DNA of 38,989 bases from Fonticula-like sp. SCN 57-25 (taxonomy: Eukaryota), in the NCBI GenBank assembly GCA_001724245.1, contig MEDX01000032.1, positions 1 through 38,989 of the forward strand, in the 5' to 3' direction. Of the stretch, positions 1-37,455 are shown piece by piece (positions within the stretch are counted from its first letter, which is position 1; each line of letters begins with the position of its first letter). Position numbers and translations under genes: made by a program. A model generated the notes under the pieces. That model was not told where the DNA came from and ran no database searches. It worked only from the letters and a program-made list of their open reading frames with translations.

Positions 1-3000
1 TCGTACCAGAGCAAGGGTTGGTAATGTTGCCCCAGTTGCCGCTCTCGTCGCACTCGCGCGTCGGCGCACCGAAAAAGCCCGGGTTGCACTCACCGCTGGC
101 GAGCGACAGAGCGGGCGTCTCGGCCCACTGGGCGTCGCCGTCCTCAATCACGGGGCACTTGTTCTGGACGCACGGGTTCTGAACATCCTCCCAGGTACCG
201 GCGAGCGAGCACGCGCGCGACGGGCTGCCAGAGTAACCAGTGTCGCAGACACCCGCGGCGGACGAACCGGCCGACGTCTGCGGCCAATCGGCCGAGCCAA
301 AGCGCTCAGACGCGCACTGCACGACGCTGCACACGCCAGTGATGGTGCCCCACGCGCCAGACAGCTCGCAGTTGCGGGTCGGCGAGCCAGAGTAGCCGGC
401 CGGGCACGAGCCGGTAACGTCAGTCGAGCCGGCGTTGGCCTCGGGCCACGAGCCAAGCTCGTTCTCGTTGATGGCGGCGCACTTGGTGCGCAGGCACGGG
501 TTCGAGACAGCGCCAGAGTAGAGACCGTTGACGTCGCAGTCGCGCGTCGGGGCGCCCTGCCAGCCGGCAACGCACACGCCGCTGACGCCGCTCGTCATCG
601 AGTCGGCGATGGGCCACTCGGCATTGTCGATCGTGATAGAGGCGCACTTCAAGCGGTCGCACGAGCCAACAGTCTCGCCCCACACGCCGGAAGCGTCGCA
701 CGGACGAGTGGGCGCGGTGGAGGCGCCATAGCCAGAAGCGCACGTGCCGACGGCCTGCGAGCCAGCGGCGGTCGAGCTCCAGACAATGTTGTTGTTGGTC
801 TCGGCGGCGCACGAAACAGTGGCGCACGTGCCAGTAACGGTGCCCCACACGCCCTCAATCGAGCAGGCGCGCGAGACAGAGCCAGTGTAGCCGGTCTTGC
901 AGGTGCCCGACACGGTGGAGCCGCCGAGCGTAGCGGGCCACTCGGAGGTCGAGTCGGTCAGCTGCGGGCACTTCTTCTGCGAGCACGGGTTGGTCGTCGC
1001 GCCCCACTGGCCGTTAAGGTCGCAGGTGCGGGTCGGCGGGCTGCCGTCGGTCGGCTCATAGCCAGTGAGGCACACGCCGGTGGCCTCAGTGCCGGCGTTG
1101 GCGGTCGGCCACGACTGGTGGCTGCCGTCGTCCGAGATGGACGCGCACTGGATGGCCTGGCAGAGCGGGGACGGCGTCGACCACTCGGCGGTGAGCGAGC
1201 ACGTGCGCGCGGTAGTGCCAGAGTAGCCAGCAAGGCACGTGCCGGCGGTGAAGGTGCCGGCCTGAACAGACGCCGGCCACGAGGCACCAAAGGCAGAGTA
1301 CGAGGGGTCCGACTGCGTGCAGTAGAGCGGCACGCAAGGGTTGATGATCTCGGTGTCCCACGAGCCGTCCGTGCGGCAGAGACGCGAAGGCTTGACGGCA
1401 GTGCTGTAGCCAGCGACGCACGTGCCCTCGACGATCGTGCCCACTTCATCGGGGGAAGACCAGTCGGCGTGCTCGTCATTGGTCAGCGCAGTGCACGGGT
1501 TGGTGCTGCACGGGTTCACGACGGCGGACCACGTGCCGTTGTAGAAGCAGTCGCGGGCGGGGCGGCCAGACGTGTTGTCATAGCACGTGCCGGGGACGGA
1601 GAACATGCCGGCGTTCGTCTCGGGCCAGATGGCCTGCGAGTCAGACTCGTTGGCGGCAGCGCACTTGAGACCTAAAACAAAAGTCAGCACGTGGCCAAAA
1701 TATATCGCGAGGGCGTACGGGTGCAGGGGGTGCCGGTGGCGGCGCCCCACGATCCCTCGATGCCGCAGCTGCGGACCGGCGCGCCGACAAAGCCGAGGTC
1801 GCACGTGCCCTCAACAGTGGCCGAACCGGCAGCGCTGGAAGCCCACGTGGCCGAATCGGCGGTGAGGAGCGGGCACATGATCTGCACGCAGGGGTTGATG
1901 ATCTCGCCAAAGTCACCGGCGGGGTCGCAGGTGCGCGTCGGGCTTCCGGTCCATCCGGCGACGCAGACACCGGGGGTCGTCACGAGCGAGTTGGTGAGCG
2001 GCCAGTTGGCATTGCCGTCGGTCACGGCAGCGCACGTGTTGCCTATAAAGACACGTGAGCATGGAAAAAAAACCAACAAAAAAAGTCGGCGCACGAGTGC
2101 AGGCAGTCGTGACGGGCACCCAGTTGCCGTTGAGGTCGCAGTTGCGGGTGGTCGGGCCAGACCAGCCCGACACACACTCACCCGAGACGCCGTTCGTGCC
2201 GGCGGTAACCGTCTGCCAGTTGGCGTTGTCGAGCATGGTGGCCGGGCAGTAAATCTCTGCAAAAGGCAAACATTGAGCAAACAAGACGCATGATCAAGGT
2301 CGCGTACGCTGGCAGGGATTGGTCACATCGGTGGACCAATCGCCGGCGGCACCGCACGAGCGCGACGGGGAGCCAGAGTAGCCGGCGACGCAGGTGCCGA
2401 CGGCCACAGTGTTGGAGAGCGTGTTGGCGGGCCAGACGGCGTTCGAGTACGTGTCGGCGGCGCACACATTGCCTATATCACGGTCCGTGAGCAAAAAAGG
2501 TCGCAATGCGCGGCAAAGGCGTACGGATGCACGAGGGGCTGACAGTCGCGGACCACTCGCCGCTCAGCTGGCAGAAGCGCTGAGGCGAGCCAGAGTAGCC
2601 AGAGTTGCAGGTGCCGGTGGCAGTCGAGCCAGCGTTCGTCTGCGACCAATCAGCGTTGGAGTAGGCAGTGACCGCCGAGCACTTGAGCTCTGAATCATAT
2701 CGTCGTTAGCGAACGCGCAAAAGTGCATGCCAAGGCGTACGAATGCACGAGCCGGTGATGGCGCCCCAGGTACCGGTGGCCCCGCACGCGCGCGTCGGCG
2801 AGCCCGCAAAGCCGGCGTTGCAGGTACCGGTCGCAGAGGCAAAAGAGAGGGCAGTGGGCCAGACGACGTTGTTGGCCGAGTCGGTAAAGCCGGCGCACTG
2901 GTTCTCTGTGTGCGTGTCAGAAAGAAAGCGAAAAAAAAATGTTGGCGCGTACGGGTGCACGCGTTGGAGACGCCGCCCCAGGTGCCCGAGGCGCTGCAGG

Positions 3001-5602: not shown

Positions 5603-8600
5603 ATGGCGCGCTCCATGTCCTTGATGCCTCGAATTCTGCCAGGGCCGCAACATCCACAGAACAAAGGTAATGATCTTGGCGGCCGCAACGTGCTTTTTTA
5701 ACAAAATTTTAATAGGAGCCGCTGATTGGGGCCCGCAGGGGTTTGTGGCGCATGGCTCGCATGCTCTCGTTGTCGTCACCGATTCCGCGTCCCTGCAGGT
5801 GGTACAGGTCCTGGACGGGCATGGGTCGCTCATCGTTTGCGTAAAGTGGTACGCAAATGTGGCAATTTTACGTAGCGATGCTAATATTGATCCAGGGCGC
5901 TGGATGACTCTTTCCATGATGTCTATCGTCCGTATGCCCTGACATTGGCTTCGGCCGATGCGCTGGGTCGCGTGTTTATATGGCATCTGCACAAGGCGCG
6001 TCTTTTAAATCATGTCCGCGCACATTTTCTGACTTTTCTTTTTCGTTTTAGACGCAGCCAGTGCTCCGGCTGCCGAGCGCGGGGCGCGGCGTCGTGGATC
6101 TCGCGTGGCAGCCCGGCTCCCCTGACGTGCTCGCCGTCGCCTACGCCCCCGGGATGCTGTCCCTCTTTGACGTCAAGCTGAATCAAAAGATATCCGTTCT
6201 TTCCTTTCATGTTTTATTGTTGAATTTTTGTTTTTTCTCTATTGAATTTCGTGTTTTCCTTTCTTGATCGTGCGCAATCCCCTTTTTTTTTTCCTTGACT
6301 CGCCCCTCACGTCTGGAGCCGCGAATTCTCTGGCGACGTCCTTCGCTTCCAATTCAACCCCTTTGACAGCAGCAGCGGCTTTCTCCTCACCGCGCAAGGC
6401 GTCATGTTCAACCTGACCGGGATCGGCAACACGCGATCGCAAGACATGCAGATCCGCAAGTTTCAGGTCGGCGCCGATCGCGGCGATGGCGCATCGCCCG
6501 GCCAGATCCCCGCGCCGTCAACGCCACGTAAGCGCGGCGCGCTTTCAACACCAAACGAGCTTTACCAGTCATGTGACTTTATCGCTTCTTTCTACTCGCC
6601 AAACGAGCGCGACATGATCCTGCTCGTGACGCGATCCGAGATCCTCTTTCTGGACGTCAAGGTGAGCCAGATCGTGTCGACCATTAGTGGCGAGCCACGT
6701 GGTCCGCACTTGGTTGGCGCGCTGCTTTGCCGTGAACATCCTGACTTGCTCGTCACTCTCAACGAGGCCGGAAGGTGCGCAGTTTTGCTATGAAAATCGA
6801 CCTTTTCGGCCCTTTTTGAACCATTTTTGCCCATTTTTGACCAAATTTTGACGTTTTTTGACCCATTATTAAACCTATTTTCTTTTTTCTAACACAATTT
6901 CCTTTCCATTTTCAGCATTTTAATAAGAAATCTTGGCGACCAAACCGGCCGCCGCGGCTTCTCCATCGTTGCTTCTGGTGACATTGGCCCTCGCCGCCCC
7001 GACCGTTCCTTTCAACTATTAGGAAATCCGCTTGATGACCTTGAATTCATGGCACTAGCAACAGACGGTCGCATGTACGCATACAAATATCTATTTTTAG
7101 ACTTTATACTTGATGCTATACTTGATGCTATTATGCTATACTTGATGCTATACTTGATGCTATAATTGATGCTATTATGCTATTGATGCTATTATGCTAT
7201 AATTGATGCTCAAATTGATGCTATTATGCTATACTTCAAGCTATAATTGATGCTATATTTGATGCTAATATTGATGCTTTTATGCTGTAATTGATGCTAT
7301 AATTGATGCTATATTTATGTTATTATGCTATAATTGATGCTATAATTGATACTATTATGCTATATTTGATGCTATTATGCTATTGATGCTATAATTGACG
7401 CTATTATGCTAAAATTGCTATAATTGATACTAAAAATACTTTTTTTCTAGCTATAGTTGGACACACAACTTGCCCGACCGTCTACTAGTAACTGGTTATT
7501 ATGAAGGCCTATGGTCATCCGTCACGTGCCTCTCCATGAACACCCCCCCCAAATCCACCCCAGACTCCCCCCCCCTCCTATGCGCCCTCGGCACACGCAC
7601 AGGCCACATATTCATACTAAATTTATATACTTTTTCCATTGACCGCTGCCTTGCCGCACATGATCTCCCTATTCGCGGCCTATCATGGATTGACACGTCA
7701 ACAGTTTTGTCATATGCGACGGATGAAGTCGGAACGAGGCAGTATAGGAATTCGGTTAGGATTGCTGACGTCAGCACTGGGAGGATGAGGGAGGTGAGGA
7801 GTGAGAAGAATAAGGATCAGTGGGCGATTAGGGGGGTGAGTTTGTCGTGGAGGAGGCAGTATATGGTCGTCTTATTTAAGGATGGGTACGATTATGAATA
7901 TGAATATGAATATGAGTATGTGTATGAGGGTTGTTGATGACGTTATTGATTATTGTCGTTGATGAGTATGAGTATTATTTGAATATGAGTATCATTGATG
8001 AGTATCCATATATGTGTTATTGATGAGTATTATTGATGAGTATGAGTCAGTCATTGATGAGTATGAGTATGAGTATGAGTATGAACATGAACATGAACAT
8101 GAACATGAGTATGAGTATGAGTATGAGTATGAGTATGATTATGATTATGAAATTGTGTATGAGTATGATGTGTAGTATGAGTGGTATGAGTATGAGTATG
8201 AACATGAGTATGAACATGAGTATGAGTATGAATGAGTGGATATGAACATGAGTAAGAGTATTATTGATGAGTAAGAGTATTATTGATGAGTATGACTATC
8301 ATTGATGAGTATGAGTATGAGTATCATATATGAATATGAGTAATATTGAGCATTATTATAACTATTAATAGCTCAACCTCTAACACTAACACATTCCCTC
8401 TAGTCCAATGGAACTCTGGGACATTATCACATTCACCCTCCTCAAACCCGCCTTTTCCTCCCTTTCAATCCCAACCGCCCTTTCAATCTCATTCAGCCCA
8501 ATCGCACCAATCACAGCCACGCAAACCTCACCCATATTAACCTCATTAAGACCATCTTCATCTATTCGCAAATCACGCAACCACGTGGCCTTTGATACGT

Positions 8601-11600
8601 CATCATCAATGACGTCATCATTATTAAATACGTCATCATCAATGACGTCATCAATGACGTCATCATACCATGGTTCATCCTACCATGGTTCATCATATGG
8701 TTCATCATCTTCAGTATTGTACCCAGAATCCCTTGCGATCCTATTGGCTGATGGCACCCTAGTGGGGTGTACCATAAATGGGTGTCTGGTGACAGAAGAC
8801 TATAGGCTGTCACGTGGCGGTGCTGCAGCGAGTGGTGGGGTAGAATGGGATAGGAAGGAGAGTGTGGTTGTGGGGGGGGATGGGGGGGGGAATGTGTTTT
8901 TTTATCACGTGGGGCAGTCGAGAATAAAGTACGAAGAGGGGTAATATGGGGTAATAATGGGGAAGAATAGGGAATAATAGGGAATAATAGGGAATATTGA
9001 TGCTTTTTTATGTTATTTATACGTATCTTTTTGTCTCTATTTTGTGTCAATTTTGATAGATTTTCATGATTTTGTGTCATTATAGATACTTTTTTGATAC
9101 TTTTTCAATGATGTTTTTATATCATTTTTATATCATTTTCTCTCTCTTTTCTTCTCTTTTCTTCCCTTTTCTCTCATTTTTCTCTTCTTTTTCTCCCTTT
9201 TCCACCCCCTTACTAACCCCATAATAGATCATTTTCCACCCCAAATTACGGCGAAGTTCGCAAAATCCGAAGCTCACCTTCCGGCCGTTCCTCTCACCGT
9301 TTCCTTATCCTTTTTACACGTGGCCTCGGCCTATTCGAAGGCGGCCGTTTCGAATGTGCCGCTTTCCTTCCATTTGCTGACTCATCAAATATGAGTACCT
9401 ATAGTGTTAATGTTTCATTGGATGAAGTGAAACAGAGTCCGAACAAGATGGGAGTTGGGGGTGGAATTGGGGGTGGAATTGGGGGTGGATTGAAAGAGAA
9501 GGAAAAGATGCAGTTTGGGTATGAGGCATTGAGTGTGGTGGATGTCGAGTGGGTTTCATTAGACAGGATTATTTGCCGTACGAGGGGAAAAATGGGTGAA
9601 AAATGGGTGGAAATGGGTGAAACATGGGCTTTTTAGGTGAAAAATATTGTTTTTTGGTGCAATTTGGTACATTTTGGTGCATTTTTGGTGAAAATTGGTT
9701 CATTTTTGATGTATTTTGACTATTTTGTTGTTGACAACTGTGATCATTTTATGACCATTTTGATGTCATTTGTCTCATTATTGATACAATTTTGATGCAA
9801 TTTGTCTCATTTTTACACACTTTTCATATCATTTTCACACCACTTTATCTTCATTTTCATATCATTTTCCCTATTAACTCTTCTCTTTTCCTATTACTTT
9901 CCTTATTACTTTCCTAGTAATGGGTGATGGAAGTGTTCGCCTTATGGACAGCGACCTTCGCCGCGCCGTTTCGCCCCTTCTTTCCTATCCAACCAATCGC
10001 CGCGTCCAATCACTTTCCCTCCTTCCTAATAAGGACGCATTCACCCTCAAGACTCTGCTCACGTGCCAGCCATGGCGAAATGGTGAGTCACCATTATTGC
10101 CTAATAAGGCAGATTCATTGCTGTCATTGTCGTCGCTTTTCTCGGAAATTGGGGAGGAAAGTGTCCACGTGGACATTGATGTTGATATGGCGGAAGGTGA
10201 GGAAGGAAAAGCACAACATGGCGCCAATAATGAGGTACGACTATGGATAAAAATCTAAAAATAGTATTTTTGGATCCAACTGACATGGATTAAAAGGACC
10301 ACTTGTCATCATTACTTATGTTTGCTGGACGTCACGTGCCGCCACGTCATCTTGCCTTATTGAGCGCCCCCATAAGTGTCGCCGATCGCGCCGTCCAAAC
10401 AGCGCGCCTATTTGGTGACGTGGCAGAAGTCTCCTTTTGGCGATTGGCACTTTTCTATCTTGATTACGTCACCCAACACCCCGAAGAAATGCCACCGATC
10501 GCGCCTTCAAATGTCCACGTGGCCATACCAAATGATGACATCAGCATGGAAAATTTTTCCCTTTCGCCGCTCAAATCTCCCGCGCGATCGCGCCGCGCTT
10601 TGGCCGCCGAAGCCACGTCATCAGCAACACTCGAAACACGACGTCTGACGTCACTGATGACGTCACTCAACCCCACAAATGACGATAAAAATCACGTGAC
10701 TAATTCAACTTCACTCCCGCCATATTTTGATATGTTTCGGCCTGCAAAACAACTTCGCCCATTTCATATAAAACGTCTCGAAACGCGCGAACGCGTCTCA
10801 TTATCATATGAAAATACGCAACAATTAACAAGTACAAGTATGATGCTTGGCGAGCATGAAAATGCGATAAGATTGTTGTTGGAGACGCCGTCGAATACGG
10901 TTAATTTTAGGGGTGATGCTATGAAGGCGTGTTTGATAGCGGCGTTGTGTTCGCCAGAGACATTAGAGTCAACGGTGCGTGGGAAGTGATATAGGGAAAG
11001 TGATATAGGGAAAGTGATATAGGAAGGGAAAGTATATGTTATGGGTTGTACTGTGATGATATATAGTACATGATATGATATGATATAGTACATGATATAT
11101 GATATATTGTGGTGATAAAGTACATGTGGTATGATATAGTACATGATCCATCATATAGTGTGGTGATTTAGTACATGATACATGTGGTGATATAGTACAT
11201 GATATAGTATGATATAGCACATGATATAGTATGATGAAGTACATGATATATTGTGATATAGTGTGTTGTATTCGTATTGATCACGTCATAGATGTTCTTG
11301 TTTTATGTTCTGATTCCATCTGATTCCCTTCTGATTTTGTTTTCTCCCTTCTGATTTTCCTTATTTCCTTCTGATTTCTCCTCTTCAGGTCCGTATTGTC
11401 GCTACTCGCTTCATGTCCAACAACGATCTCGACCAAGCCATCGATCTCCTCTGCATGCTCAACCTCGGCCTCACCGCCTGCCACCTCCTCCAAGATGATC
11501 ACCGCTGGGATGATGCCGCGCTCATCGCCAACTCAATCTTGACATCATCTGATCGCGCATCTGTTTTCAAGCGATGGGCAGATGATCTGGTTGAGGGGCA

Positions 11601-12272
11601 GGAGATCATTAAGGCTATTAATGTTTATTTGAGTATGGGTGATTTCGTGAATGTGATTGGCTTGTTGAGGGCGCAGGGGTGTAGTGAGATGGCGGCGGTG
11701 TTGTGGGGGGAGTGTGAGGAGAGAGGGATTACGAAAAAGTGGGATGGTACGCATAAGGGGAAATTGAGGAAAAGGAATATATTATGAATATATTTGATAT
11801 GAATTTGATCTTATTTGATATGAATTTACTCTTTTGATATGAACATGTTTGATATGATTTTTTAATATGAACATGTTTGATATGAACATGTTTGATGTGA
11901 CTCTTTTGATATGAACATGTTTGATATGTTCTTTTGATATGAACATGTTTGATATGACTCTTTTGATATGAACATATTTGATATGATTTTTTGATATGAA
12001 CATGTTTGATATGCTTTTTTGATATGAACATGAACATGTTTGATATGAATTTGCTCTTTTTTGAACATATATATGCGTTTATCTTCCTTTCTTCTTCTTT
12101 ATTCCTTTCTAAATATGTTATAGATTCAGCGCAGTTACTTGCAAGGGATGTCTGCAATGGATATGCAGACTATTTAAGCGAGCTCGGATTGGCTCAAATC
12201 GCCGCATCTTATCGGTCACGTGCTGAAGAGATCGGTGCATCGACAATGCAGGACACGCCAAGTGACATGTAG
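5603..12272 (+). CDS. WDR11: WD repeat-containing protein 11 ortholog, 13 exons: 5603-5666, 5716-5848, 5896-5995, 6052-6189, 6311-6774, 6916-7074, 7451-7885, 8404-8928, 9228-9577, 9918-10234, 10297-10974, 11389-11746, 12124-12272
   Basis: Spliced protein begins PQNKGAADWGPQGFVAHGSHALVVVTDS...LASADALGRVFIW and ends with AIRLLLETP...DAMKACLIA...ACHLLQDDHRWDDAALIA, matching remembered WDR11 N- and C-terminal motifs. All junctions keep frame. Confidence 0.92.
6190..6310 (+). other. U12-type (minor spliceosome) AT-AC intron in WDR11
   Basis: Starts ATATCCGTT, branch site TTCCTTGAC at 6291-6299, ends CCTCAC. Removal joins KLNQK|VWSREFSGDVLRFQFNPFD in frame. Confidence 0.9.
7100..7440. repeat. Intronic degenerate minisatellite, ~8-12-bp TGATGCTATA(C/A)T / TATTATGC units
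   Basis: Visible tandem array filling WDR11 intron 7075-7450. Confidence 0.9.
7890..8345. repeat. Intronic hexamer microsatellite (ATGAGT/ATGAAC/ATGAAT)
   Basis: Tandem array in WDR11 intron 7886-8403. Confidence 0.9.
10985..11270. repeat. Intronic degenerate repeat (GTGATATAGGGAAA, then ATATAGTACATG-like units)
   Basis: Visible in WDR11 intron 10975-11388. Confidence 0.8.
11785..12070. repeat. Intronic minisatellite, TTGATATGAACATGT-like units
   Basis: Tandem array in WDR11 intron 11747-12123. Confidence 0.9.
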
Positions 12273-12769
12273 TACATTGCTGTGACACGCCTGCAGGCAC
12301 ATTTGATTCATGTTGTGTTGGTATGGGTATGTGTCTTTGGTCATATTTGGTACAGCATTGTGACAGGCATGTAGACATGTAGTCAATGTCAATGTCCTTT
12401 GTGTAGGTTGATATTCAGTACTGTAACATCTATTCAGTATTGTTGAATATGGCCACATGGCCATGGTAGTGTTCCAATGTTCTTCTATTAGCTATGCAAA
12501 TGTGTTCTTTTGTATATTTCTTCACATTCCGCATATAAAGTGAAACATAATGTAATATTCAAAGAGAAAGCACATATGGTCAATGTAATAGAAAAAAAGT
12601 ATGAAAAATGCGCGCGAAACACGCAAAGAAAAACACCCAAAAGAGACTTTTTTCGCGTCTTTCCCGCCAAACAACCCTTAAAATATCCCTAATAACTCCC
12701 TAATTCAATTGAAATTGACCAACATTTTTATTGCTATTTTTGGTATTTCTCGTCATCTCCATCATCTTC

Positions 12770-14995: not shown

Positions 14996-15533
14996 ATGCG
15001 GTACAAGACGACATCGGGCCGCAAGACGACCCCCAAGCGCCTCCCCGGTGCTGCTCCTGGCCGCCCCGCACGTGCGCCATCCGCATTCGTACCCGCGCGA
15101 TCCCTGTACTCACTGCTCCCTTTTCCGTATTTTTACAGCGCCAGCAAAGGAGACTGAGGCCGCGCCGCGCAAGCGCCGCAGCCGCCCCGGTACACTCGCG
15201 CTCCGCGAGATCCGCAAGTATCAAAAGTCGACAGATCTGTTGCTCCGGAAATTGCCTTTTGCGCGTCTCGTACGTGAGGTCACAATGAACTGCATCACGC
15301 GGGAGCCGCTCCGGTGGCAGTCGATGGCGATCATGGCGCTGCAGGAGGCGACCGAGGCATTCTTGGTTCACCTCATGGAGGACGCGTGCGTGATCTTGTT
15401 TCAGATGAAATCATCGTGCTAATGTTATGCTAATAGGTATCTGTGCTCAATTCACGCAAAGCGCGTCACGTTGATGCAGAGCGACATGCAGCTGGCGAGA
15501 CGGATACGCGGCAGCGTTGGCTTTATGATTTGA
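14996..15533 (+). CDS. CENPA: Centromeric histone H3 variant (CenH3/CENP-A/Cse4); introns 15072-15138 and 15386-15436
   Basis: Divergent N-tail and histone fold [33 protein letters not shown]...[14 protein letters not shown]...[21 protein letters not shown]. Shows CenH3 hallmarks: PFA instead of PFQ, W instead of F in LRWQS, H instead of T after LCSI position pattern, altered loop 1. Confidence 0.9.
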
Positions 15534-17068: not shown

Positions 17069-17741
17069 CGCAACGTCTTTCCCCCCCTTTCAGGCTACCG
17101 TGCGTGGGCCGACGTGGATCGGGGAACAACAAAGCACAGTTGATGATCATCAGATACTGGTTAGATAGTGATTAAGGGGTGGGATCACGGCCGGATCAAG
17201 GAGGCATATTGGGCCAATATTGGCACACGGGAGCAGACAGTTAATATAATAAATGGTAGCAGTATATGTGTTTATAAACACCAGTATTTGCCAAAGAAAG
17301 TGCTTTGTAGGGTTGCCATATCATTTGTTGGAAAAAGTGACCTTTCTTGGGCACACGTGACCTAACTGAAGTGACTTTTCCTGGACTTGTACGTATGGCC
17401 ATACAAGAACAACGTCATTTTATAATAAAACATGACGTGTGTATGCACGCACTTTACTGCTTACGTAACCAATTTAAAGTATGGCGATGTCTGCCAATGT
17501 CTGCCAACATACGGGCATACGTAATTAGGTACTTGGAAGATCCCTGTTTCTACAATTTGCGGTAATCAGCCGACCAATCAGGATCGAGCAACTTTTTGTT
17601 GTCGACATTCATGTCTGCCTACGAAGTCCAAAACGGGCAGGCCTAGGTCGGTTAGTTGGCGAATAGGTGTATATAGCAGAGTTTGTAGCCACAGCGATCT
17701 GCAGAGAGACTTTGCAGGCGGCGGCCACCTCTCTACCGAGA

Positions 17742-20471
17742 ATGTCGAATGTGGATATTTGCCGCCGTTTTTTAATACAAGGGCAGTGCACCACTGTGGG
17801 ATGCACGAGAGCCCATAAGCTCAGCGAACTTTCGAGACCGATCCATCCGCCAAAGACGTTGTCGCGGAATAAGATCTCGCTATGCAGGTACTGGTTGCTG
17901 AATGAATGCAAGAACACGTCTTGCGCGTACGTTTGCCTCTTACCGGACAATTTTTGAAGGCTAACTTGGCGGGATTTTTGCTCAGGTATGCGCACGCGTG
18001 TATCGAGCTTCAGTGGTACGATGCTCCAAACCGCGGGAGCAAGGATTCGCTTTGCACGTACTGGCTTGCTACAGGACGTTGCCACGTACAAGGTTGTCAG
18101 AGCGCGCACAGTTTGCAGCAGATGCACGGCATCGAGGTACGTTTTTCCCAACTGTTTTTTGATTTTCCCGCCCGATTTTAACATGCGCATGTCAGCTCGC
18201 CCTCCCGACATGTTCCGAATGGTTCCTTCGCGGCGTCTGCTCTCGCGGCGCGCGCTGCACCGCCCAACACACAATAGGCGTACGCCTCTCTTTTGTGTAC
18301 CTTTCCGCTGCTAATCTCTTTGACTCTAGCTTCGCGCATCGGCCATCGCCGCAAAAGAGGAAGGCTACCGGTTACCGCTCTCCTCCTACTACCAGTCAAC
18401 GGATCGCACCGTAAACAAGGCCATTGACGGCTACTACCGCAGCGGCCTCACGAGCACGCTCGCCCTCTTCTCCGAACTGATCAAGGAAATCTCCCGCTCG
18501 GCCGACACTCTTTTAACATCAACCTCGATGCGCGATTGCGCCCGCTTCAAATCGACCCTCGAAGAATTTCTCGGCTACACTAAAGTAGAGTCTTACGAGT
18601 GCCGACGCGTTCTCACCGACCTCCGCTTCCTCTTTGAACACCTTTTTTTGGAACTCACGCAGCTCGCCGGCGTCGAAATTGACCGCCCCACTTCGACCCC
18701 ACTACTACTTCGCGTCGTCCAGAGCATTGACGACGTCGGACTTTCCCGCTTTGTCAAGACAACAGGAATGCAACTTTTAGACATTGTAAACCCCGCCGTC
18801 CACGCGGACACTGACGTCAGCCTTCAACACGTCAACCGCGCCTGCTTTCTCTTTGTTGAAATTGTCATGCTTTTAAAGGCAATGCGCATCGACCTCGACG
18901 TCCGCTCACGACTTGCGGCCATTATCGAGACATCCACGTGGTCAAAACCTGCGATTGCCGACCATCTTTTCCAGTACATTGAAAAGTCGCCGGTGCGCAT
19001 CACCACCTTCAAGATGGACGCGGCATCAAGGAATACTATTGTCCACGTGGCGGCAATGAATGGTCATTTTGCCGGCGCGGCCGAGTTTTTGCGCCGCCTC
19101 GTGGCCGAGCCATATGGCGTACAAGCTTTATCTGAAACGAACGTGATTGGCTGGACGCCCATATTTGTCGCTGCTCGTGTCGGCGCTCTCGATGCAGTCA
19201 AGGAAATGCTGACAATTACGGACGATATTGAATCGCAGCGCGATCCACATGGCCGTAATGTTCTTATGGTGGCGCTGATGCCGGCGGATGATGGAGTGCT
19301 AATTGACCCGAAGGGCCGCGTGGCGACAGCCAAATATTTGCTGACACACTGCAGTGCGCTTGCTCTTGCCCAAGATCATGATGGAAATACCGCATTGCAT
19401 TATGCGGCAATGTTGCAATCGAGTGATCACGTGGCCGCGCCGGCCTTGTGGGATTTGCTAATTTCACATTCGAGGTCGAATGTTACTAATTTGGAGCGCA
19501 AGAGGGCGGTTGACGTGCGCAATGACGTCATGAGAATGCAGCCGGGAATGAGTCAGAATGGAATGCAGCAGCAAGGTCACGTGCAGCAGCAAGGTCACGT
19601 GCAGCAGCAAATGATGACTCAGCAACAAGTTCCTCAGCAGCAAACGGTGACTCAGCAACCAGTTCCTCCGTTGCATGTTCAGAATGCAAGGCCTCAGCAG
19701 CAAACGATGACTCAGCAGAACGCCCAGCCAAATGTTCAGCGTCCAAGACCTCAGCAGCAAACCGTGACTCAGCAGCAGCAAACGGTGACTCAGCAACCGC
19801 CGCCTTTTGTGCCGCTATCAAGGCCTCAGCAAGTCAACTATCAGCAAATGTTTCACTCTCAGCCAATCACATCGCAGCAAGCCGCCGCTCAGCCAATCAC
19901 GTCGCAGCCGCCTGGTCTTCAAAACCCAAGCAATGTATTCCAACAAGGACGCCACGTGGCCCCATCTGCCCCACTTCGCCAGCCGTTACAAAGGAAAACG
20001 TCGGACAATTTCAGCCCTTTTAGCGCCAACGACACTGATTGGGAGGCGGACGCTTTTGATGACACGCACATTTCGTCTCAAAATTCGTCTCAATCGTCTC
20101 AACAATCGTCTCAAAATCCATTTCAAAATTCGTCTCAAGCAAGTCACGTGCGCCTTTCACCCGCGGCGGGTTTATTGGCACCCGGCTCGTCATCCTCTTC
20201 CCCTGAACGCGTCCCTATCGATCGCCCAACTGTCCACGTGACCAATACCCACGTGACCAATACTCACGTGACCACCAATGGTCCCGTTCCGCAATTAGAA
20301 CAAACGTATGCTGGATATTTGACTGATAAGGAAAAGCGCCCAGAACTGGAAGAGAATATGGCAATGCTAGTGAGACTTGGATATGATCGTGATATGGTTT
20401 TGCAAGCATTATTAGTTGTTGGTAATAGGAGAGATGAGGCGCTTGCATTATTGGAGAGCTTTTCATCATAA
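17742..20471 (+). CDS. Multidomain protein: 4 CCCH zinc fingers, helical (HEPN/DUF4145-like?) domain, ankyrin repeats, Q-rich linker, C-terminal UBA-like domain; introns 17927-17985, 18137-18195, 18280-18329
   Basis: Fingers CRRFLIQGQCTTVGCTRAH, CRYWLLNECKNTSCAYAH, CTYWLATGRCHVQGCQSAH, CSEWFLRGVCSRGARCTAQH. Ankyrins NTIVHVAAMNGH, GWTPIFVAARVG, GRNVLMVA, GNTALHYAA. UBA-like MLVRLGYDRDMVLQALLVVGNRRDEALALL. Splicing joins in frame to ORF 18528-20471. Confidence 0.85.
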
Positions 20472-20792
20472 AAAATGTGTGTTTATGTGTTGCAAATATG
20501 TCTATATATGTGTAGAGTATGTGTGATTGGTGTGGTATGCTGTGAGCATATCAAGTTTATGTACTTTGAGTACATGATTTCCTAACTCTACAATGTGTGC
20601 AATACGTCTTCAAGGAAAAGCACTAAGCTTCAAACCCCATTTTTGTCTTACAATTCTGACTTTAAATACACTATTTATCAATTTTATTCATTGTTTTCTA
20701 TTGGCAAAATGCATAGTGTACACGAATCAACCCAGAAAAACAACCAACCAATCACAACCAACAAAAAAAAACTCTCAACCAATCACATCATC

Positions 20793-23639
20793 TCACCTTC
20801 CCGATATGGCAAAAAGCATATTTGCCGCCGTTTGCGCGAGCGGCGTCGGCGCCATTGCCAAACTGAGCAGCAAATCCTCATAGGGCTCAATGATCTGCGC
20901 ACCAATCCGATCGCCGCAAAGCGCACCAATCGCATTCGCCGCCAATGCCGCGTGTTCAAGTGACGTAGGCACTCTTAATACCAGTGAGGCCACGTGCATG
21001 AGCAGAGGAATGGCAAAAGCAGTGCGGGAAATTATGGCGGGAAATGGGGCTGGGTAGGCGCAGAGCGCGCATAGACCAATCAGAGCGGCTTCATAGGCAC
21101 GTGAGTCGCGCGAAAAGACACTGTCGGCGACACGTGGCCATAAAAAGGCGCATAAGGTGCCCATGAGGTGCGCCACGAGGCGCTCTTTTTCGTCCAATGA
21201 GAGGCCGTCGGATATGTATGGCTTGTTTTCGTGGAGTAGAATGAGTTGTGCTAGTGATTCGATCGCGCAGACATTGACCCATGGCGAGTGCTGATTGGTG
21301 GGAGAAGATGATGTAGAAGGTGAAAAAGGGGGTGAAAAAGGGGTAGGGTCGTTTAGGGCGTCGCGGACAAGGCGCGAAAAGGGGGTTTCTATCGAGGGAT
21401 CGGCCCAATTGGATGACAAAAAGACGCGAAGCGCATCCGAAGCAGTCGTTCTTGATGACGTCATCGTGGCATTTGAAGTATCTGATGACGTAATTGATGA
21501 CGTAATTGATGACGTAATCACATTATTCAATGATGTATTTTCTTCCTTGACTTCCTTGATTGATACTGACGCACTTGAATCCCCTGCCTCCACCTTGATA
21601 CCAACCTCATTGGCCAATTTCGATGACGTGGACAATGCTGATTGGCCACGCAAAAGCTGCGCGCGAACGACCGCCGAAATGCTGACAAGGCCATTCAAAA
21701 GACCCGCGGCAAGTTCGGTGGAACGCAATCGAAGATCGCCCGCGAGCAAGCTTGATAGGTGAACGGCGGCGTCACGATGACAGGGGCGTGAACACGTGAC
21801 CTCGCGAAGCAGAAGCCAAGGAAGGACCGCGTGATTGGCCATGCGGGCGCGGTGGTGGCGGGAAAGTGCGAGGTTGCGGAGAATGAGCCAGCAGGACGAA
21901 ATTATGCCTTCAGTCGCATCGCCAAACACATCTATTGGAAGAAAAATGAGGAAGAAAACGTGTTAAAAGTGAGAAAAATGGTTGAAAAAAGCATGAAAAT
22001 GACACAAAATGACACAAAAAAGTGCACAAATTTCGATGAAATTGACCAAACAAGGCACGAAATGTCACAAATTACCATCAAATTCACCATAAAAATACGC
22101 ACCCTTTACGCCTTCCTTCTCCAATGACACCAACGGTGACATCAGCAAATACTTTGACGGCGCCCTCTCCTCACTACACCCCTCTCTCCTTCCCGCCAAA
22201 ATCTCCACGACCCCATCCAACAACGCCGGATTTCCACCAATCGGAATCTGTTCCGCCGCCGCGTCATTCGCAGACAGCACCGTCATCACATTCAGCGCCC
22301 ACGTGACATCCACAAGCAGACTCGATCGCAGGCACAAACCAACGCGCGCATAGCTCACGTGACCAAGCGACTCTGGGCGGATCGCCGACAGCGACGACGT
22401 GGTCGCGCGAACAAGAATGGAGGCCGCGTCCAATGGGATGCCGACGGAAGGTGCTGACGTCATCGCTTGGGAGAAGAGCGTGCTCAAGTTGTGTTCGGGC
22501 GCGGCGGGCGGCGCAGCAGAAGAGGAAGAAGTTGTTATAGAGGCGCCTCGGCGGCCGCCGGCGGGCGCGGCGGACGAGCGCGGCGGGGGGGCGCCCGCGG
22601 CGGCGCTCATGTACTGGCTGTACCGCGGGTGGTTCTGGCCGGGCGGGCGGCCGGGCGGGCGCGACGGCGGCTTTGGCGATTCAGTGGGCGCGCGGGAAGT
22701 GGCAGGAGAAGAGGAAGAAGTGTGCGGCAGGGGGCGCTGAGAAGGGCTCCAAAACTGCTGCTGCTGCTGAGCCTGTTGGAGTTGGTGAAGCTGCTGCTGG
22801 GAAAGCTGCTGGTGGCTCGGTAGCATTATCGTGTTCTGCTGCTGAGTTTGCTGCTGAGCTTGAGCTTGTTGCTGGAAGCGCTGCTGAAGAATTTGCTGCT
22901 GCTGAATCTGCTGCTGCTGCTGCTGTTGGGCTTGAATTTGGGGTTGTTGAGCCTGCTGCTGACGAGCTTGGAATTGTTGCTGCTGCTGGGCTTGAAGTTG
23001 CTGCTGCTGAATGCGTGCTGCTGCTTGGGCGTGCGCAAGGGCGGTGGCGTTCTGTGCTGCCGGGATCTGCGCGCCCATCCGCTTCTGCATGGCCATATAA
23101 TGCTTCTGGGCCTGGAGCTGCTGCTGCTGCTGGAGGGTTTGCTGCTGCAGCATCTGCATCTGCTCGAGAGAGAGGTGGCCAAGAGAGGGGCGCTGCGGCG
23201 GGTGGCGGGCAGCGGCGACGCCAGCGGGACGCGGCGAGGCGACACGAGGGGGGGCGATCTTTGCAGGCGCGCTGCTGCTGCTGGTGATGCCGCCAGTGAT
23301 GCCGCTGCTCGTTGGGCTGCTTGTTACAGTCATGTCTTGCCTGAGGAGCATCTCGTGCACTTGCTGCTGCAGCGCGCGCTGACGGCTCTCGACCTGCTGG
23401 AGCTGCTGCGCGGTGGATTCAGTCGCGTCGCGCGGCTGCGGCGCCGTCGTGATGGGCGCATCGGACGGGGAAGGCGGCGAAGCCGAAGATGCGGAAGAAG
23501 TGTCGGCCGTCGGCGGGGCCGATGCCGGCGCGTCTATTGAGGAGGGGTCGTTAGGCGTCTGCGTGATCGAGTCGATCCACGCTTGCTCATCGCTCGCAAA
23601 GAGCGGATCAAGGACAGGGCCTGACAACCCTTCGGTCAT
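20793..23639 (-). CDS. SWI/SNF ARID1/Swi1-like subunit (Q-rich N-terminus plus BAF250_C-like ARM region), no ARID domain seen; intron 22102-21932
   Basis: YARVGLCLRSSLLVDVTWALNVMTVLS and CWLILRNLALSRHHRARMANH resemble ARID1/Swi1 C-terminal motifs (LxSGLxxExxWAL; ILRNLS). Phase-1 GT-AG intron links the two ORFs. Confidence 0.7.
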
Positions 23640-28259: not shown

Positions 28260-30539
28260 TCACACGGCCGACTCCTCGACCAACCTGACATGCGCCATCG
28301 GCACCATTCCCTCCTTGCCATTCAGCTCGGCAATCCACCAGCCATCGTCCAGCCCTTTTACACCATATTAGCCCATCATAAACAAAAGCAATAGAGCGCA
28401 CCTTCTGTCTGAACAATCTTCATCGTATCGCCCTTTCTAAACATGAGCTCGTCATCATAGCCAGGCTCGCTGTTGTGCAGCGCCACCGCCAACCGACCAA
28501 TAAGCGACGACACTTGACGCTCAACCTTGTGTTCAGCGGCCACGTGGTCATGTTCAGTAGTCACGTGGTCATTGTCAGCAAAAGTTTGTTCAGCCTGATC
28601 TTGAGCCTGATCTTGAGCCTGATCTTGAACCTGATCTTGAACCTGATCTTGAGCGTGATCTTGAGGCTGATCTTCAGTCACTTGATGAGTATCAGCACCT
28701 TCATGGTTATCACCCTGATGACCATCAGCAGCTCCTTCATGGCCATCAACAACTGCCTTTGGCGGCGTCCAAAGCGGAATGACCGGCTCTGCCTCTGCGT
28801 CGGCCGCCTCTTCCTCGTCGGCCCCGCCGGCATCTTCGTCATCATCTTCGTCATCTTCGTAATCTTCGGTAATGTCCACGTAACGGCACGGAAAAATGCC
28901 TTCCTTTCCGTCGCGTTCGCGGCGGCCCAGCCAATGGCCGTTGGCCGGTCGGTCAATGACGAGGATGATTTCGTCCTTTTGGATGTGCAGGCCGTCCTCG
29001 TCGTAGGCGTTGGGGGCGAACTCGCGCGTGCAGACGGCGCGGGCGACGGCGGAGCGGAGGGAGGAGGCGGAAGAAGAAGTGGCGGGTTCGGCGGTGGCGC
29101 GCATCGGTGAAGAGGCGGCTGAAAAGTGTGTCAGAGAGCTGGAAAAGTGGCAGGAAAAGTGGCAGAAAAAGGAGAGAAAATGCACAGAAAATGAAAGAAA
29201 TGCGACACAAAAAGCAAAAAATAGTCATAAAATGAACAAAAAAGAGTCATAAAATGAAATAAATACAACGTAAAATACATAAAACAGTCATGAAATGTGC
29301 CATTTTCCCCTTTCCCTTTAGTCCACATACCCTTTGGGTCAGGGAGCCTTGACTTTGTAGCGAGCTGCAGGTGGTACATCCACCTGTCCATAACCACCGG
29401 GCTGTCTGCCGACAAAAAGTACGTCCTTGCGCCCTGCCCCGCCACCTTGAACCCATTGGTCATGATCTTTGTCGCGGTGGACACTTCGCATCCCGGCATG
29501 CTGATCTTGCCGAGCGCCGCCTCCTCATCAGGCGTCTTGAAATAGTACACGCAAAAAGTCTTTGTGAGCACGAACCACCGCCGTTTCCACGACTTTACGA
29601 CTTCGCCCTGCTTTGTGAGCCAGCCACTGAGCACCGGGTCTTCCTGCGCGAGGCTGCGCGCCGACGGCATCGGCTCGGGCGTCCCGGGGCCGAGGCCGAT
29701 CGACGAGCTCGATGAGCTCGGGCTGATCTGGGGGACGGCGGCGGCGGCGGCGGCGGCGGCCTTGCGGCGGGGGGCCCACGAGCGCGCGCGCGCGAGCATC
29801 GCCGTCGGCGACGAGATCGAGCCAAAAGTCTGCTTGCGGGGGGCATCAGATGGCGCGGCATCGGGAGTGGCGCCGATCGGGGGGGCGGAGAGGATCGGCG
29901 CGGCGGGCTGTGCGGCGGGTTGGGGCGGCGTGGGGATCGTGCGAGAAATGACGGAGCGCGGCACCCAGCCGGTGAGGCCGGGGAGATGCGCGTGCTCGGC
30001 GTAGATCCACTGGCTGGCATCGCGCGTCGTGGGCGAGGGAGGGGGGATGATGAAAAGCTCATCGTTCTCAGTGACGGGCATCTCGTCCGCATCGTCAGAA
30101 GACCATGTGGTCGCCACCTAGGAAAAGAAAGAGAGCGCGTAAGAAGCCGCAACAAAAGGGAAAAGATGGCGCACGAGGCGGCGGAGGCGGCTGCCAGGGC
30201 TGGGCGGCGGCGACGAAACAGTGCGAAGCACGTCAATCTGAGTCATGAGAATGCGCTTGCCGTTCGCTTCCGTGATGCCCATCGATGACATATTCGCGTC
30301 CGTCAGCGTAAACAGATGCACGCCGTCAATCTCATTGTCTACAGAAAAGGCAAGATGAGCGCATCGGACGTGGCGCCCCATAGTGTAAACACACCTTCAA
30401 AAACAGGCGCATGCACAGCAAGGCCAATGTCCTTGAGCCACGCGCACACCTGCGACACACTCCACCCTACTTGCATGTTAGAACACGCACAGCACCCATA
30501 AAAGCGAGAAACAAGGAACGTACGCGGCGCGTCCTCCAT
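28260..30539 (-). CDS. Signalling adaptor, SAM-SH3-PH-SH3-SH3; 6 exons
   Basis: SAM: WSVSQVCAWLKDIGL...NEIDGVHLFTLT. SH3: DEMPVTENDEL...GWVPRS. PH: GWLTKQGEVVKSWKRRWFVL...MDRWMYHL. SH3: LHIQKDEII...WLGR...GIFPCRYV. SH3: ELMFRKGD...DGWWIAELNGKEGMVPMAHV, then TGA at 28262-28260. Confidence 0.85.
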
Positions 30540-34997: not shown

Positions 34998-35909
34998 CGC
35001 GGCACCACGTGAGGGTACACGGCAAACTAACCTGCAACCCGAGCTGCAAACTGACATGCAATCTGGATTGCAAACTGGCAATCTGTGTGGCGGGGCAGAG
35101 AGCAGCGCGACGCCAGGTGACCCCGCATTGTCGGCGAAAAATATGGGACTGTGTTGTATAGAACGATTCCTGGGCCTATGCTGCGCTTGTGTACAAATGG
35201 CTCAACCGAATTGACGCCTTTTGAGCGCGGTAGAGGTCATGGAACACAGGTACCCCACAGCGAGGGTACAGAGTGCACTATACACACCATATCACTTGGA
35301 TCCGAGCGACGAATGAAGGTGCTGTCCAGTGTTTTCGACTTTAGGGCACAATAGACCTGCTCAAAAATACGATCTTGCTATTGATTACGATTTTCAGGTG
35401 AGATTAGGAGGAATTCTGGTTCCCGTAACCCAGATTCGAAACCCAGATGTCGGTACAGCATCCATAATTGTATTGGCACAGCGCATGTTGCACTGAATAC
35501 CAAATGACTGAGTATGGCCATGGTATGAGAGCGACTACTCTAGAGCAAATGGACCGGGTTTGTAAACTAGAGCGATCACCATCTGGCATCGGCACGTCAT
35601 GACACACACCGGCGAGCGCAGCCGAGCTTCGTACTACGGTACTCGCGCGCAGTCAAGATCAAGTATTGGGAAATGTCTCGCTCGTAAAACCTTGGCTGCG
35701 ACGCATGAACGCGCTATTTGTTGGCGTGGTTGTGCATTCCTTCAAGATGCCTGGATGTCGTGGACAGATGCACACGTAAAAACGCAAATTTGGCGGGAAA
35801 GTTTGTGCATCAATATTCATTATTCATTGTACAAATCCTCGTTCATATCATACATAATACTGTAATACCATTGAACACAGAGTGCCAGAAAATTAAAAAT
35901 TGATCTTGA

Positions 35910-37154: not shown

Positions 37155-37455
37155 TGCAGTGGTAGGCGATGGGGCCTTAACACATCAAATATTGACGAAA
37201 ACGCTTCTTGCGACGGATTCGCTACGGTTGGTGCTCGCATGCGCCCGAGTGGTGCGCAATGAGCAGACGTGCGATCAGCGCCCCTGCTGCCCCGCGGATG
37301 CGCCGATGCCAGCGGTGGTCGATTCAAATTTTACCCAGGAATCCAGCGACGATTCAAGAGCAGATTCCAGCCCGCGGCGCATCTTGTCAGCATCTTGTCA
37401 CCATGAAGCAGTCGACGCTCTCTGACAGTCCGCATTTTCTTGTTTCCTGCTTGCC

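What the first reader, a model, noticed from the sequence alone, without database searches (positions are those of the whole stretch)
19520..20285. Disordered protein linker built from tandemly amplified transcription-factor motifs
Seen: the Q-rich linker of the CCCH-ankyrin gene is encoded by repeats whose cores are classic TF sites. These are TGACGTCA (19523), GGTCACGTG x2 (~19575-19601), TGACTCAGCA x5 (19615, 19648, 19708, 19765, 19786), AGCCAATCAC x2 (19861, 19891), GCCACGTGGC (~19951) and CACGTGACCA x3 (20235-20274). The peptides HV, MTQQ/VTQQ and QPIT use the same motif-forming codons each time. Established: these are CRE/bZIP, bHLH E-box, AP-1/Maf-ARE and NF-Y consensus sites. Inference: the DNA motif, not the peptide, is what is being kept or amplified, either as an exonic enhancer or as protein-bound footprints protected from mutation.
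Basis: partly seen in the sequence, partly recalled or inferred. Interest (0 to 1): 0.75.

Follow-up and report, generated by a model that had tools for sequence, protein, structure and literature searches.

The report
Promoter words rewriting a protein linker
In an uncultured single-celled eukaryote, short DNA words that gene-regulating proteins normally bind in promoters have piled up inside protein-coding DNA next to long AT-rich introns and gene ends, strongly enough to change the proteins, and this glutamine-rich linker is an extreme case of that regional pattern rather than a special switch for one gene.

Summary
All listed motifs sit at the stated coordinates. The 17 sites in the linker collapse to about 9 independent ones, still above codon-shuffled chance for the G-box (whole exon, duplicates masked: CACGTG 8 vs 1.4). 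The pattern is regional, not gene-specific. In exons beside long introns, CACGTG occurs in all three frames (77 vs 38.5 in loci not chosen for motifs; 27 vs 8.8 in fresh loci), rises with intron length, and makes His-Val the top dipeptide. Exons far from long introns show no excess. AP-1/Maf is not supported: the five copies are one duplication family. Tandem units genome-wide are not biased toward motifs (8 of 135 vs 5.6), so 'amplified motifs' is not the general cause. The same zones show mirror G/C skew, position-dependent C>G changes and 10-11-bp-periodic duplications. Best reading: AT-rich islands are break-prone, and protein-bound sites are spared or favoured during repair, so they accumulate in tolerant loops (inferred, 0.4). 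Binding is untested. The scan noted the motif pile-up and the skew earlier on other contigs of this genome.

The parts
17742..17926 (+). Exon 1 (start codon, CCCH finger 1, most of finger 2)
   Evidence: Pfam zf-CCCH_2 and related hits; GT-AG introns and open frame
17986..18136 (+). Exon 2 (end of finger 2, CCCH finger 3)
18196..18279 (+). Exon 3 (CCCH finger 4)
   Evidence: own HMM; C-x8-C-x5-C-x3-H pattern and splice signals
18330..20471 (+). Exon 4: helical region, ankyrin repeats, Q/P/S/T-rich linker, UBA-like end
   Evidence: 713-codon ORF; Pfam
18812..19433 (.). Five further promoter-type words upstream of the linker: TGACGTCA 18812, CCACGTGG 18934 and 19043, TGATTGG 19144, CACGTG 19428
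19044..19484 (+). Ankyrin repeats (residues 239-385 of P0001)
   Evidence: Ank_2 E 5e-14, Ank E 2.5e-8
19520..20285 (+). Low-complexity linker (Q 22%, P 12%, S 11%, T 8%, V 8%); 113 of 766 bases in motifs, 179 in recent duplicates
   Evidence: coil in a low-confidence single-sequence model
19523..19530 (.). TGACGTCA (CRE-type), single
19549..19555 (-). TGACTCA on the opposite strand, single
19564..19610 (+). Exact 18-bp duplication carrying GGTCACGTG; one unit is absent in protein P0122 from another assembly
19602..19795 (+). One duplication family (33- and 21-bp steps) giving five TGACTCAGCA copies
19858..19917 (+). 30-bp duplication carrying AGCCAATCAC twice
19951..19960 (.). GCCACGTGGC (G-box), single
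20036..20042 (-). CCAATCA on the opposite strand, single
20072..20138 (+). 12/21-bp tandem array without any of the tested motifs (SSQ-rich)
20144..20150 (.). TCACGTG, single
20234..20274 (+). 15-bp unit x3 carrying CACGTGACC
20346..20426 (+). UBA-like three-helix end
   Evidence: Pfam UBA E 0.003, below cut-off; three helices with pLDDT about 70
20472..20792 (.). AT-rich gap (33% G+C) between convergent genes with mirror G/C skew (+0.60, -0.41, -0.57 in thirds)
20793..21931 (-). Last exon of the convergent gene, equally motif-dense, with an exact 12-bp x3 duplication at 21483-21518
10294..10989 (+). WDR11 exon whose motif cluster includes a loop about 57 residues longer than in human WDR11: a second example in this window

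Best explanation
The linker is a tolerant, low-complexity loop inside a genome zone where a DNA-level process, not protein selection, sets the sequence. Shown: such zones lie beside long AT-rich introns and AT-rich gene ends. They carry G-box (CCACGTGG, TCACGTGA), CRE and, less firmly, CCAAT words in every frame, a mirror-image G/C skew centred on the AT-rich islands, and short tandem duplications that in introns come in steps of one DNA turn. Inferred: the islands are recurrently broken or single-stranded DNA. Repair makes insertion-biased duplications and C>G changes on the strand left single-stranded. Sites occupied by the organism's bHLH, CREB/ATF and NF-Y proteins are cut or damaged less, so alleles that create a site persist or are copied over unbound alleles during repair. 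Sites therefore accumulate wherever the protein tolerates them, and ordinary duplication then multiplies whatever lies in the loop, motifs included.
For: Regional and frame-independent: exons within 50 bp of an intron over 100 bp, 189 exons from loci not chosen for motifs: CACGTG 77 vs 38.5, CCACGTGG 32 vs 9.4 (rank 2 of 22,089 8-mers), CCAATCA 15 vs 5.5, TGACGTCA 8 vs 2.6; a third of the exons over 500 bp from a long intron (271): 38 vs 33.6, 8 vs 5.3, 6 vs 10, 3 vs 2.5. Fresh loci, 33 exons beside introns over 150 bp: CACGTG 27 vs 8.8, CCACGTGG 9 vs 1.3, TGACGTCA 3 vs 0.2. Dose-response: CACGTG 0.28, 0.33, 0.38, 0.71, 1.71, 2.32 per kb as the neighbouring intron grows from under 60 to over 400 bp, while GTGCAC stays at 0.34-0.62. 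His-Val is the top dipeptide there, 81 vs 42. The same words are among the top intergenic words and cognate factors exist. Fourfold-site skew is -0.73 just after and +0.43 just before long introns; it is also seen before AT-rich 3' ends (+0.12 vs -0.05). In intron repeat arrays, consensus-to-copy C>G is 19 of 357 C in the 5' part vs 10 of 757 in the 3' part (p 2e-4), G>C 12 of 491 vs 6 of 977 (p 0.004); 94 of 132 arrays have periods near multiples of 10.5. Spo11 and Rev1 genes are present. Literature: breaks are depleted over about 50 bp at TGACGT sites and enriched on both sides in S. pombe (PMC4199369, section 11 read); human hotspots show strand-asymmetric C>G with ssDNA left of the break on the forward strand and insertion bias (PMC7615360, passages and section 8 read); Spo11 double cuts have 10.5-bp periodicity (PMC7968521, passages).
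Against: No binding, break or recombination map exists. Within single loci the contrast is modest: rate ratios 1.66 (CACGTG), 2.4 (CCACGTGG), 2.85 (CRE), 1.96 (CCAATCA), with control GTGCAC at 1.42; 11 of 29 long-intron loci have no CACGTG in such exons. CCAATCA (3 vs 2.5) did not replicate and His-Val only weakly (15 vs 10.7); exons beside short introns in the fresh loci also had CACGTG 25 vs 14.7, with GTGCAC 31 vs 19.2. The skew also flips in exons without a G-box. This exon is 1.4 kb from the nearest intron over 100 bp; its link is to the AT-rich 3' gap. Only 7 of 122 differences laid from run X4 are C<->G (includes alignments of foreign repeats). A>G is not mirror-asymmetric. The C>G test alone in the fresh introns is not significant (5 vs 3). 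Spo11 and Rev1 are common in eukaryotes, so their presence says little. 10-11-bp periods could equally come from slippage between phased T-tracts.
Confidence: 0.4

Rival explanations
1. Selection for binding: general regulatory factors (Cbf1/USF- or Max-like bHLH, CREB, NF-Y) are needed in exons beside long, repetitive, nucleosome-disfavouring introns to keep chromatin open, position nucleosomes or prevent silencing. Loops absorb the cost.
For: Motif density peaks 100-200 bp into exons after long introns and scales with intron length; several factor classes co-occur; G-box flanks are symmetric (46 CCACGTGG and 14 TCACGTGA sites against 10 mixed), as expected of two homodimer preferences.
Against: Many long-intron loci lack the sites; no fixed spacing or order was seen; it does not explain the C>G asymmetry or the helical duplications, which would need a second cause; the common intergenic word CAAACTG is barely enriched in these exons (18 vs 14.6).
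Confidence: 0.25
2. Bound sites trigger local insertions that duplicate the site, as reported for human germline sites, so clusters grow by tandem amplification (closest to the first reader's title).
For: Four of five repeat families in this linker carry a motif; one 18-bp unit differs between assemblies; motif-bearing duplications also occur at 8597-8666, 21483-21518 and 28530-28580.
Against: Across 1,218 exons, 3 of 37 and 5 of 98 tandem units carry a motif vs 2.5 and 3.1 expected, and three of the five are this gene; the excess remains after masking duplicates; most sites are single.
Confidence: 0.12
3. The words are sequence-intrinsic end points of a context-dependent mutation or repair process (for example palindrome perfection or CpG-context effects) and no protein binding is involved.
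For: CCACGTGG, TCACGTGA and TGACGTCA are perfect palindromes; long introns lose CpG (o/e 0.42-0.48).
Against: Palindromes in general are not enriched (median 8-mer ratio 0.94); non-palindromic CCAATCA and TTTCCCGC are enriched in the first sample; exon CpG is not depleted near long introns (1.12 vs 1.11); the only DNA-methylase match is on a phage-like stretch; the words match the top intergenic words and the factor repertoire.
Confidence: 0.12
4. A gene-specific exonic enhancer or internal promoter for the CCCH-ankyrin gene or its convergent neighbour.
For: The linker is the densest window sampled and mixes site types like a promoter.
Against: The gene has an upstream region with CACGTG, CRE half-sites and CCAAT (17354-17574); equally dense clusters lie in unrelated genes (WDR11, L008, L026, L069); enrichment follows intron length, not gene identity.
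Confidence: 0.08
5. Peptide-level selection (HV, TQQ, QPIT as protein motifs) with codon bias.
For: In this linker each motif family stays in one frame.
Against: Three frames and both strands genome-wide; codon choice within His-Val departs from usage; one frame per family follows from in-frame duplication.
Confidence: 0.03

Closest known systems
Exonic transcription-factor sites ('duons'); Chen et al., bioRxiv 10.1101/2021.09.06.459186 (abstract and section list seen)
   Same: Promoter-type sites inside codons, reported to fall in loops more than in helices and strands.
   Different: There the sites are inferred from binding data in human; here exact consensus words are several-fold enriched, change dipeptide frequencies and track neighbouring intron length. 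No binding data here.
Bacterial DNA uptake sequences in coding regions; Findlay and Redfield, PMC2817400 (abstract seen)
   Same: A DNA word accumulates in all frames, about doubles the peptides it encodes and prefers poorly conserved residues.
   Different: Bacterial, one word, genome-wide, driven by uptake bias; here eukaryotic, several factor-type words, confined to zones near AT-rich islands, driver unproven.
Motif-duplicating 5-20 bp insertions at germline factor sites; Kaiser et al., PMC8559717 (abstract and passages seen)
   Same: Short tandem duplications that copy a binding site and build clusters.
   Different: Human regulatory regions; here coding loops, and exonic duplications are not motif-biased overall.
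Mutagenesis at meiotic break hotspots (Hinch et al., PMC7615360, passages and section 8) and factor-shaped break maps in S. pombe at TGACGT and CCAATCA (Fowler et al., PMC4199369, section 11 and passages)
   Same: Strand-asymmetric C>G flanking a centre, insertion bias, breaks depleted on the bound site; the same two words.
   Different: Those are measured break maps with 1-2 kb tracts; here only sequence scars over about 300 bp, and the passages read do not report sites accumulating in exons.
CCCH zinc finger / ankyrin / UBA proteins
   Same: Domain types.
   Different: No ortholog found: only identical copies from other assemblies and generic ankyrin matches.

Membership tests
bHLH E-box/G-box site (CACGTG) | Exact consensus present above chance | tested here: met
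bHLH E-box/G-box site (CACGTG) | Cognate bHLH with H-x3-E-x3-R basic region in the genome (rule recalled) | tested here: met
   17 HLH matches; 5 of the 8 loci read show the pattern
bHLH E-box/G-box site (CACGTG) | Occupied in vivo | not testable with these tools
   no chromatin data
CRE (CREB/ATF) site | Consensus above chance and cognate bZIP present | tested here: met
   8 vs 2.6 and 3 vs 0.2 in exons beside long introns; CREB/ATF-like basic regions among 7 read of 11 bZIP matches (labels recalled). The single linker copy alone is not significant.
NF-Y CCAAT box | Extended consensus above chance in exons; NF-YA present | tested here: inconclusive
   15 vs 5.5 and 12 vs 2.8 but 3 vs 2.5 in fresh loci; NF-YA found
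AP-1 / Maf-ARE site | Word enriched independently of duplication | tested here: not met
   4 vs 3.6 and 1 vs 1.3; five copies are one family; TGCTGAC is concentrated in short introns (23.7 per 10 kb), where it fits the branch point
Exonic enhancer / duon | Regulatory activity or footprint; conservation of the DNA word across orthologs | not testable with these tools
   no ortholog found; 0 of 39 listed strain differences fall in motifs vs 1.0 expected, uninformative
Kaiser-type motif-duplicating insertions | Duplicated units contain the motif more often than chance | tested here: not met
   8 of 135 exonic units vs 5.6 expected; 4 of 5 families in this linker only
Uptake-sequence-like molecular drive | Word in all frames and encoded peptides over-represented | tested here: met
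   (His-Val weak in the fresh set)
Uptake-sequence-like molecular drive | Biased transmission of word-bearing alleles | not testable with these tools
   needs crosses or population data
Break-hotspot mutational scar | Mirror strand asymmetry with C>G and insertion bias around a centre | tested here: met
Break-hotspot mutational scar | Breaks or crossovers mapped at the centres | not testable with these tools
   no break or recombination data
Methylation-protected CpG footprints | Eukaryotic cytosine methyltransferase and CpG loss outside motifs in the same exons | tested here: not met
   only a phage-like methylase (search is exon-wise and the assembly may be incomplete); exon CpG o/e 1.12 vs 1.11

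The most novel reading that the evidence does not exclude
An inverse hotspot paradox: beside recurrent DNA breaks, any allele that gains a transcription-factor footprint is cut less and is copied over its unbound partner. Binding sites are thereby driven into exons regardless of gene regulation and rewrite disordered protein regions, a eukaryotic counterpart of bacterial uptake-sequence drive, here visible from one genome sequence.
Probability: 0.2. Interest if true: 0.85.

Novelty: new variant of a known kind. Interest (0 to 1): 0.62.

Why it matters
If bound factor sites can be driven into coding DNA by repair bias, part of the sequence of disordered protein regions and of exonic 'duons' would be a by-product of DNA metabolism, not of selection on the protein or on regulation. 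This genome separates the options unusually well: the effect is several-fold, tied to a measurable neighbour (intron length), and comes with its own mutation scars. It makes the disputed question of why exons carry factor sites testable with population sequencing and one chromatin experiment.

Tried and rejected
Ortholog comparison failed: three protein searches and an atlas look-up gave only identical copies or generic ankyrins. No RNA holder listed, so the splice model is from sequence only. Strain differences: only 40 rows of the table were shown (114 not shown); 0 of 39 used fall in motifs vs 1.0 expected (one row in a CAG-rich stretch dropped), no conclusion. Single-sequence structure prediction was low-confidence (mean pLDDT 38.8) and was not used for a fold search. 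Generic palindrome formation rejected. CpG methylation with protected footprints not supported. Maf half-site TGCTGAC rejected as a branch-point word. Plain bidirectional-promoter origin of the skew is doubtful: ordinary first exons show little skew. The HMM 'class 1' motif densities were set aside as partly circular; later tests group exons by neighbouring intron length. Six loci (L069-L074) were chosen from motif listings and, with the window, were excluded from the counts called unbiased; include them. Literature searches for the exact pattern found nothing relevant (open-access library only, supplements not read), which does not show it is unpublished.
Full report
Setting. The window is a whole contig (C32) of a 9.5-Mb, 749-contig assembly. 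Its Msh2 has best named hits at about 44% identity to early-diverging fungi, and the DNA is held by bioreactor, wastewater, aquatic and 'fungus' metagenome runs (the first three with shares 1.00, 0.56, 0.56). It is an uncultured eukaryote without close sequenced relatives. The assembly also holds phage-like DNA, so whole-assembly counts mix sources.

The gene. Four exons (17742-17926, 17986-18136, 18196-18279, 18330-20471) give one frame of 853 codons with four CCCH patterns, ankyrin repeats and a weak UBA match. The linker is 22% Gln, 12% Pro, 11% Ser. No ortholog was found. Another assembly has the same DNA with one substitution; protein P0122 lacks one 6-residue unit, which is either a variant or a collapsed assembly.

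The observation. All motifs are where stated. The 17 sites reduce to 11 by automatic masking and about 9 by hand. With duplicates masked and local base composition modelled, the exon has CACGTG 8 vs 1.4, TGACGTCA 2 vs 0.1, CCAATCA 3 vs 0.4, TGACTCA 3 vs 0.7 (the last still counts two copies of one family). Six of 8 independent His-Val pairs are CAC GTG (p 0.004-0.012).

It is not gene-specific. CACGTG is the top hexamer of the whole window (54 sites vs about 13). The assembly holds 1,351 CCACGTGG and 675 TGACGTCA against 170 and 77 for the reversed words (a crude control). I fetched 80 stretches (755 kb), annotated them and the window with a self-trained HMM (checked only against the window's Pfam-supported genes), and shuffled synonymous codons within exons after masking duplicates. 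In 189 exons next to introns over 100 bp from loci not chosen for motifs, CACGTG was 77 vs 38.5, CCACGTGG 32 vs 9.4 (rank 2 of 22,089), CCAATCA 15 vs 5.5, TGACGTCA 8 vs 2.6 and TGACTCA 4 vs 3.6. In 271 distant exons (a third of that class) none was enriched. Fourteen fresh stretches (140 kb; most on contigs already seen to have long introns) repeated the G-box and CRE result: 27 vs 8.8 with frames 9/9/9, 9 vs 1.3, 3 vs 0.2. They did not repeat CCAATCA (3 vs 2.5). Density rises with the length of the neighbouring intron from 0.28 to 2.3 per kb (the top bin is only 4.3 kb). His-Val is the most over-represented dipeptide beside long introns (81 vs 42; 15 vs 10.7 in the fresh set). In the WDR11 exon of this window the cluster includes a loop about 57 residues longer than the human one. 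Limits: within loci the rate ratios are only 1.7-2.9, a control word reaches 1.4, and 11 of 29 long-intron loci have no such site.

Are they factor sites? The same words are among the top intergenic words, with an E2F-type word. The assembly encodes bHLH proteins with the G-box-type basic region (5 of 8 loci read; 17 matches), CREB/ATF-like bZIPs (7 basic regions read of 11 matches), NF-YA and E2F/DP (family labels and specificity rules recalled). Palindromes in general are not enriched, and G-box flanks are symmetric, C..G or T..A. AP-1/Maf is not supported: the five TGACTCAGCA copies are one family whose upstream ten bases are equally invariant, the word is not enriched elsewhere, and TGCTGAC belongs to short introns. 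Occupancy is untested.

Amplification. Four of five repeat families in this linker carry a motif, but among 135 tandem units in 1,218 exons only 8 do, against 5.6 expected. Duplication multiplied sites here; it did not create the regional excess.

What else marks these zones. Fourfold-degenerate sites are C-rich just after long introns (skew to -0.73) and G-rich just before them (+0.43); the introns themselves run from +0.55 to -0.52. Weaker versions flank AT-rich 3' ends, including the gap behind this gene. In this exon skew goes from -0.79 near its start to +0.64 at the linker start and fades along the linker as G+C at fourfold sites drops. In intron repeat arrays, C>G from consensus to copy is fourfold commoner per C in the 5' part and G>C fourfold commoner per G in the 3' part (p 2e-4 and 0.004; net flux 31 vs 16, p 0.04), and 94 of 132 arrays have periods near multiples of 10.5 bp. 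A cytosine-methylation model fails on present data.

Mechanism (inferred). A centre with G-rich DNA on the strand running toward it, C>G excess and insertion-biased duplication fits repair of breaks with single-stranded tails (PMC7615360: passages and section 8). Spo11 double cuts have helical spacing (PMC7968521: passages), and breaks avoid about 50 bp over TGACGT sites while rising beside them in S. pombe (PMC4199369: section 11). Spo11 and Rev1 are present. Bound sites would then be lost less often, or win conversion against unbound alleles, and build up in tolerant loops, much as uptake sequences reshape bacterial proteomes (PMC2817400: abstract). I give this 0.4. Selection for chromatin-organising binding (0.25), site-triggered duplication (PMC8559717: abstract and passages; 0.12), a binding-free mutational attractor (0.12) and a gene-specific enhancer (0.08) remain. 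Against the best reading: few C<->G differences in the one strain comparison (7 of 122), skew flips without motifs, and no direct break data.

Earlier notes of the scan on other contigs of this genome describe the motif pile-up in one gene (e1-7130851) and the intron-linked skew (e1-7131333). I tested both here. Added here: the dose-response link between the two, the negative test of motif-biased duplication, the rejection of AP-1/Maf, and the substitution and period signatures. Four literature searches for this pattern returned nothing relevant.

Verdict. Observation confirmed; interpretation partly supported. A real and unusual regional phenomenon of which this linker is the densest sampled example; mechanism open. 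Interest 0.62; new variant of a known kind.

Noticed in passing
window 7068-12495 and long introns in L008, L026, L034: Long introns are T-rich on the sense strand, nearly CpG-free and built of tandem units with 10-11, 21-22 and 31-33 bp periods (94 of 132 arrays), recalling the periodic A/T clusters of nematode germline introns (recalled).
   Followed up: partly
window 6052-12268 (+): WDR11 ortholog with introns of 300-500 bp against a genome median of 52 bp; motif-dense exons at 8404-8861 and 10294-10989.
   Followed up: partly
intergenic DNA in sampled loci; window 35022-35077: TGCAAACTG / CAGTTTGCA is the top intergenic 8-mer family (46 vs 6.7), richest between divergent and tandem genes, with a 12-bp tandem array near the start of the mitochondrial-type RNA polymerase gene; no factor assigned, and little enriched in exons.
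   Followed up: partly
L089 (G000:C53:1-2281): Phage-like stretch with a cytosine methyltransferase, an HNH-type ORF and a terminase-small-subunit-like ORF inside the eukaryotic assembly (labels of the last two from reading the sequence).
   Followed up: no
window 14996-15520 (+): Divergent histone H3-like gene with introns, possibly the centromeric variant (read from sequence).
   Followed up: no
window 37426-38784 (+): Intronless 452-codon ORF with a P-loop and only a weak nSTAND3 match (E 0.037), at the contig end.
   Followed up: no
window 35910-37184 (-): Intronless DUF2804 gene (E 3e-81), a family recalled as mostly bacterial.
   Followed up: no
window 1-2256 (-): G+C-rich multi-exon gene with 12 CACGTG sites in 741-2052 despite short introns; many may be Cys/Thr-codon effects; it does not fit the long-intron rule.
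   Followed up: no
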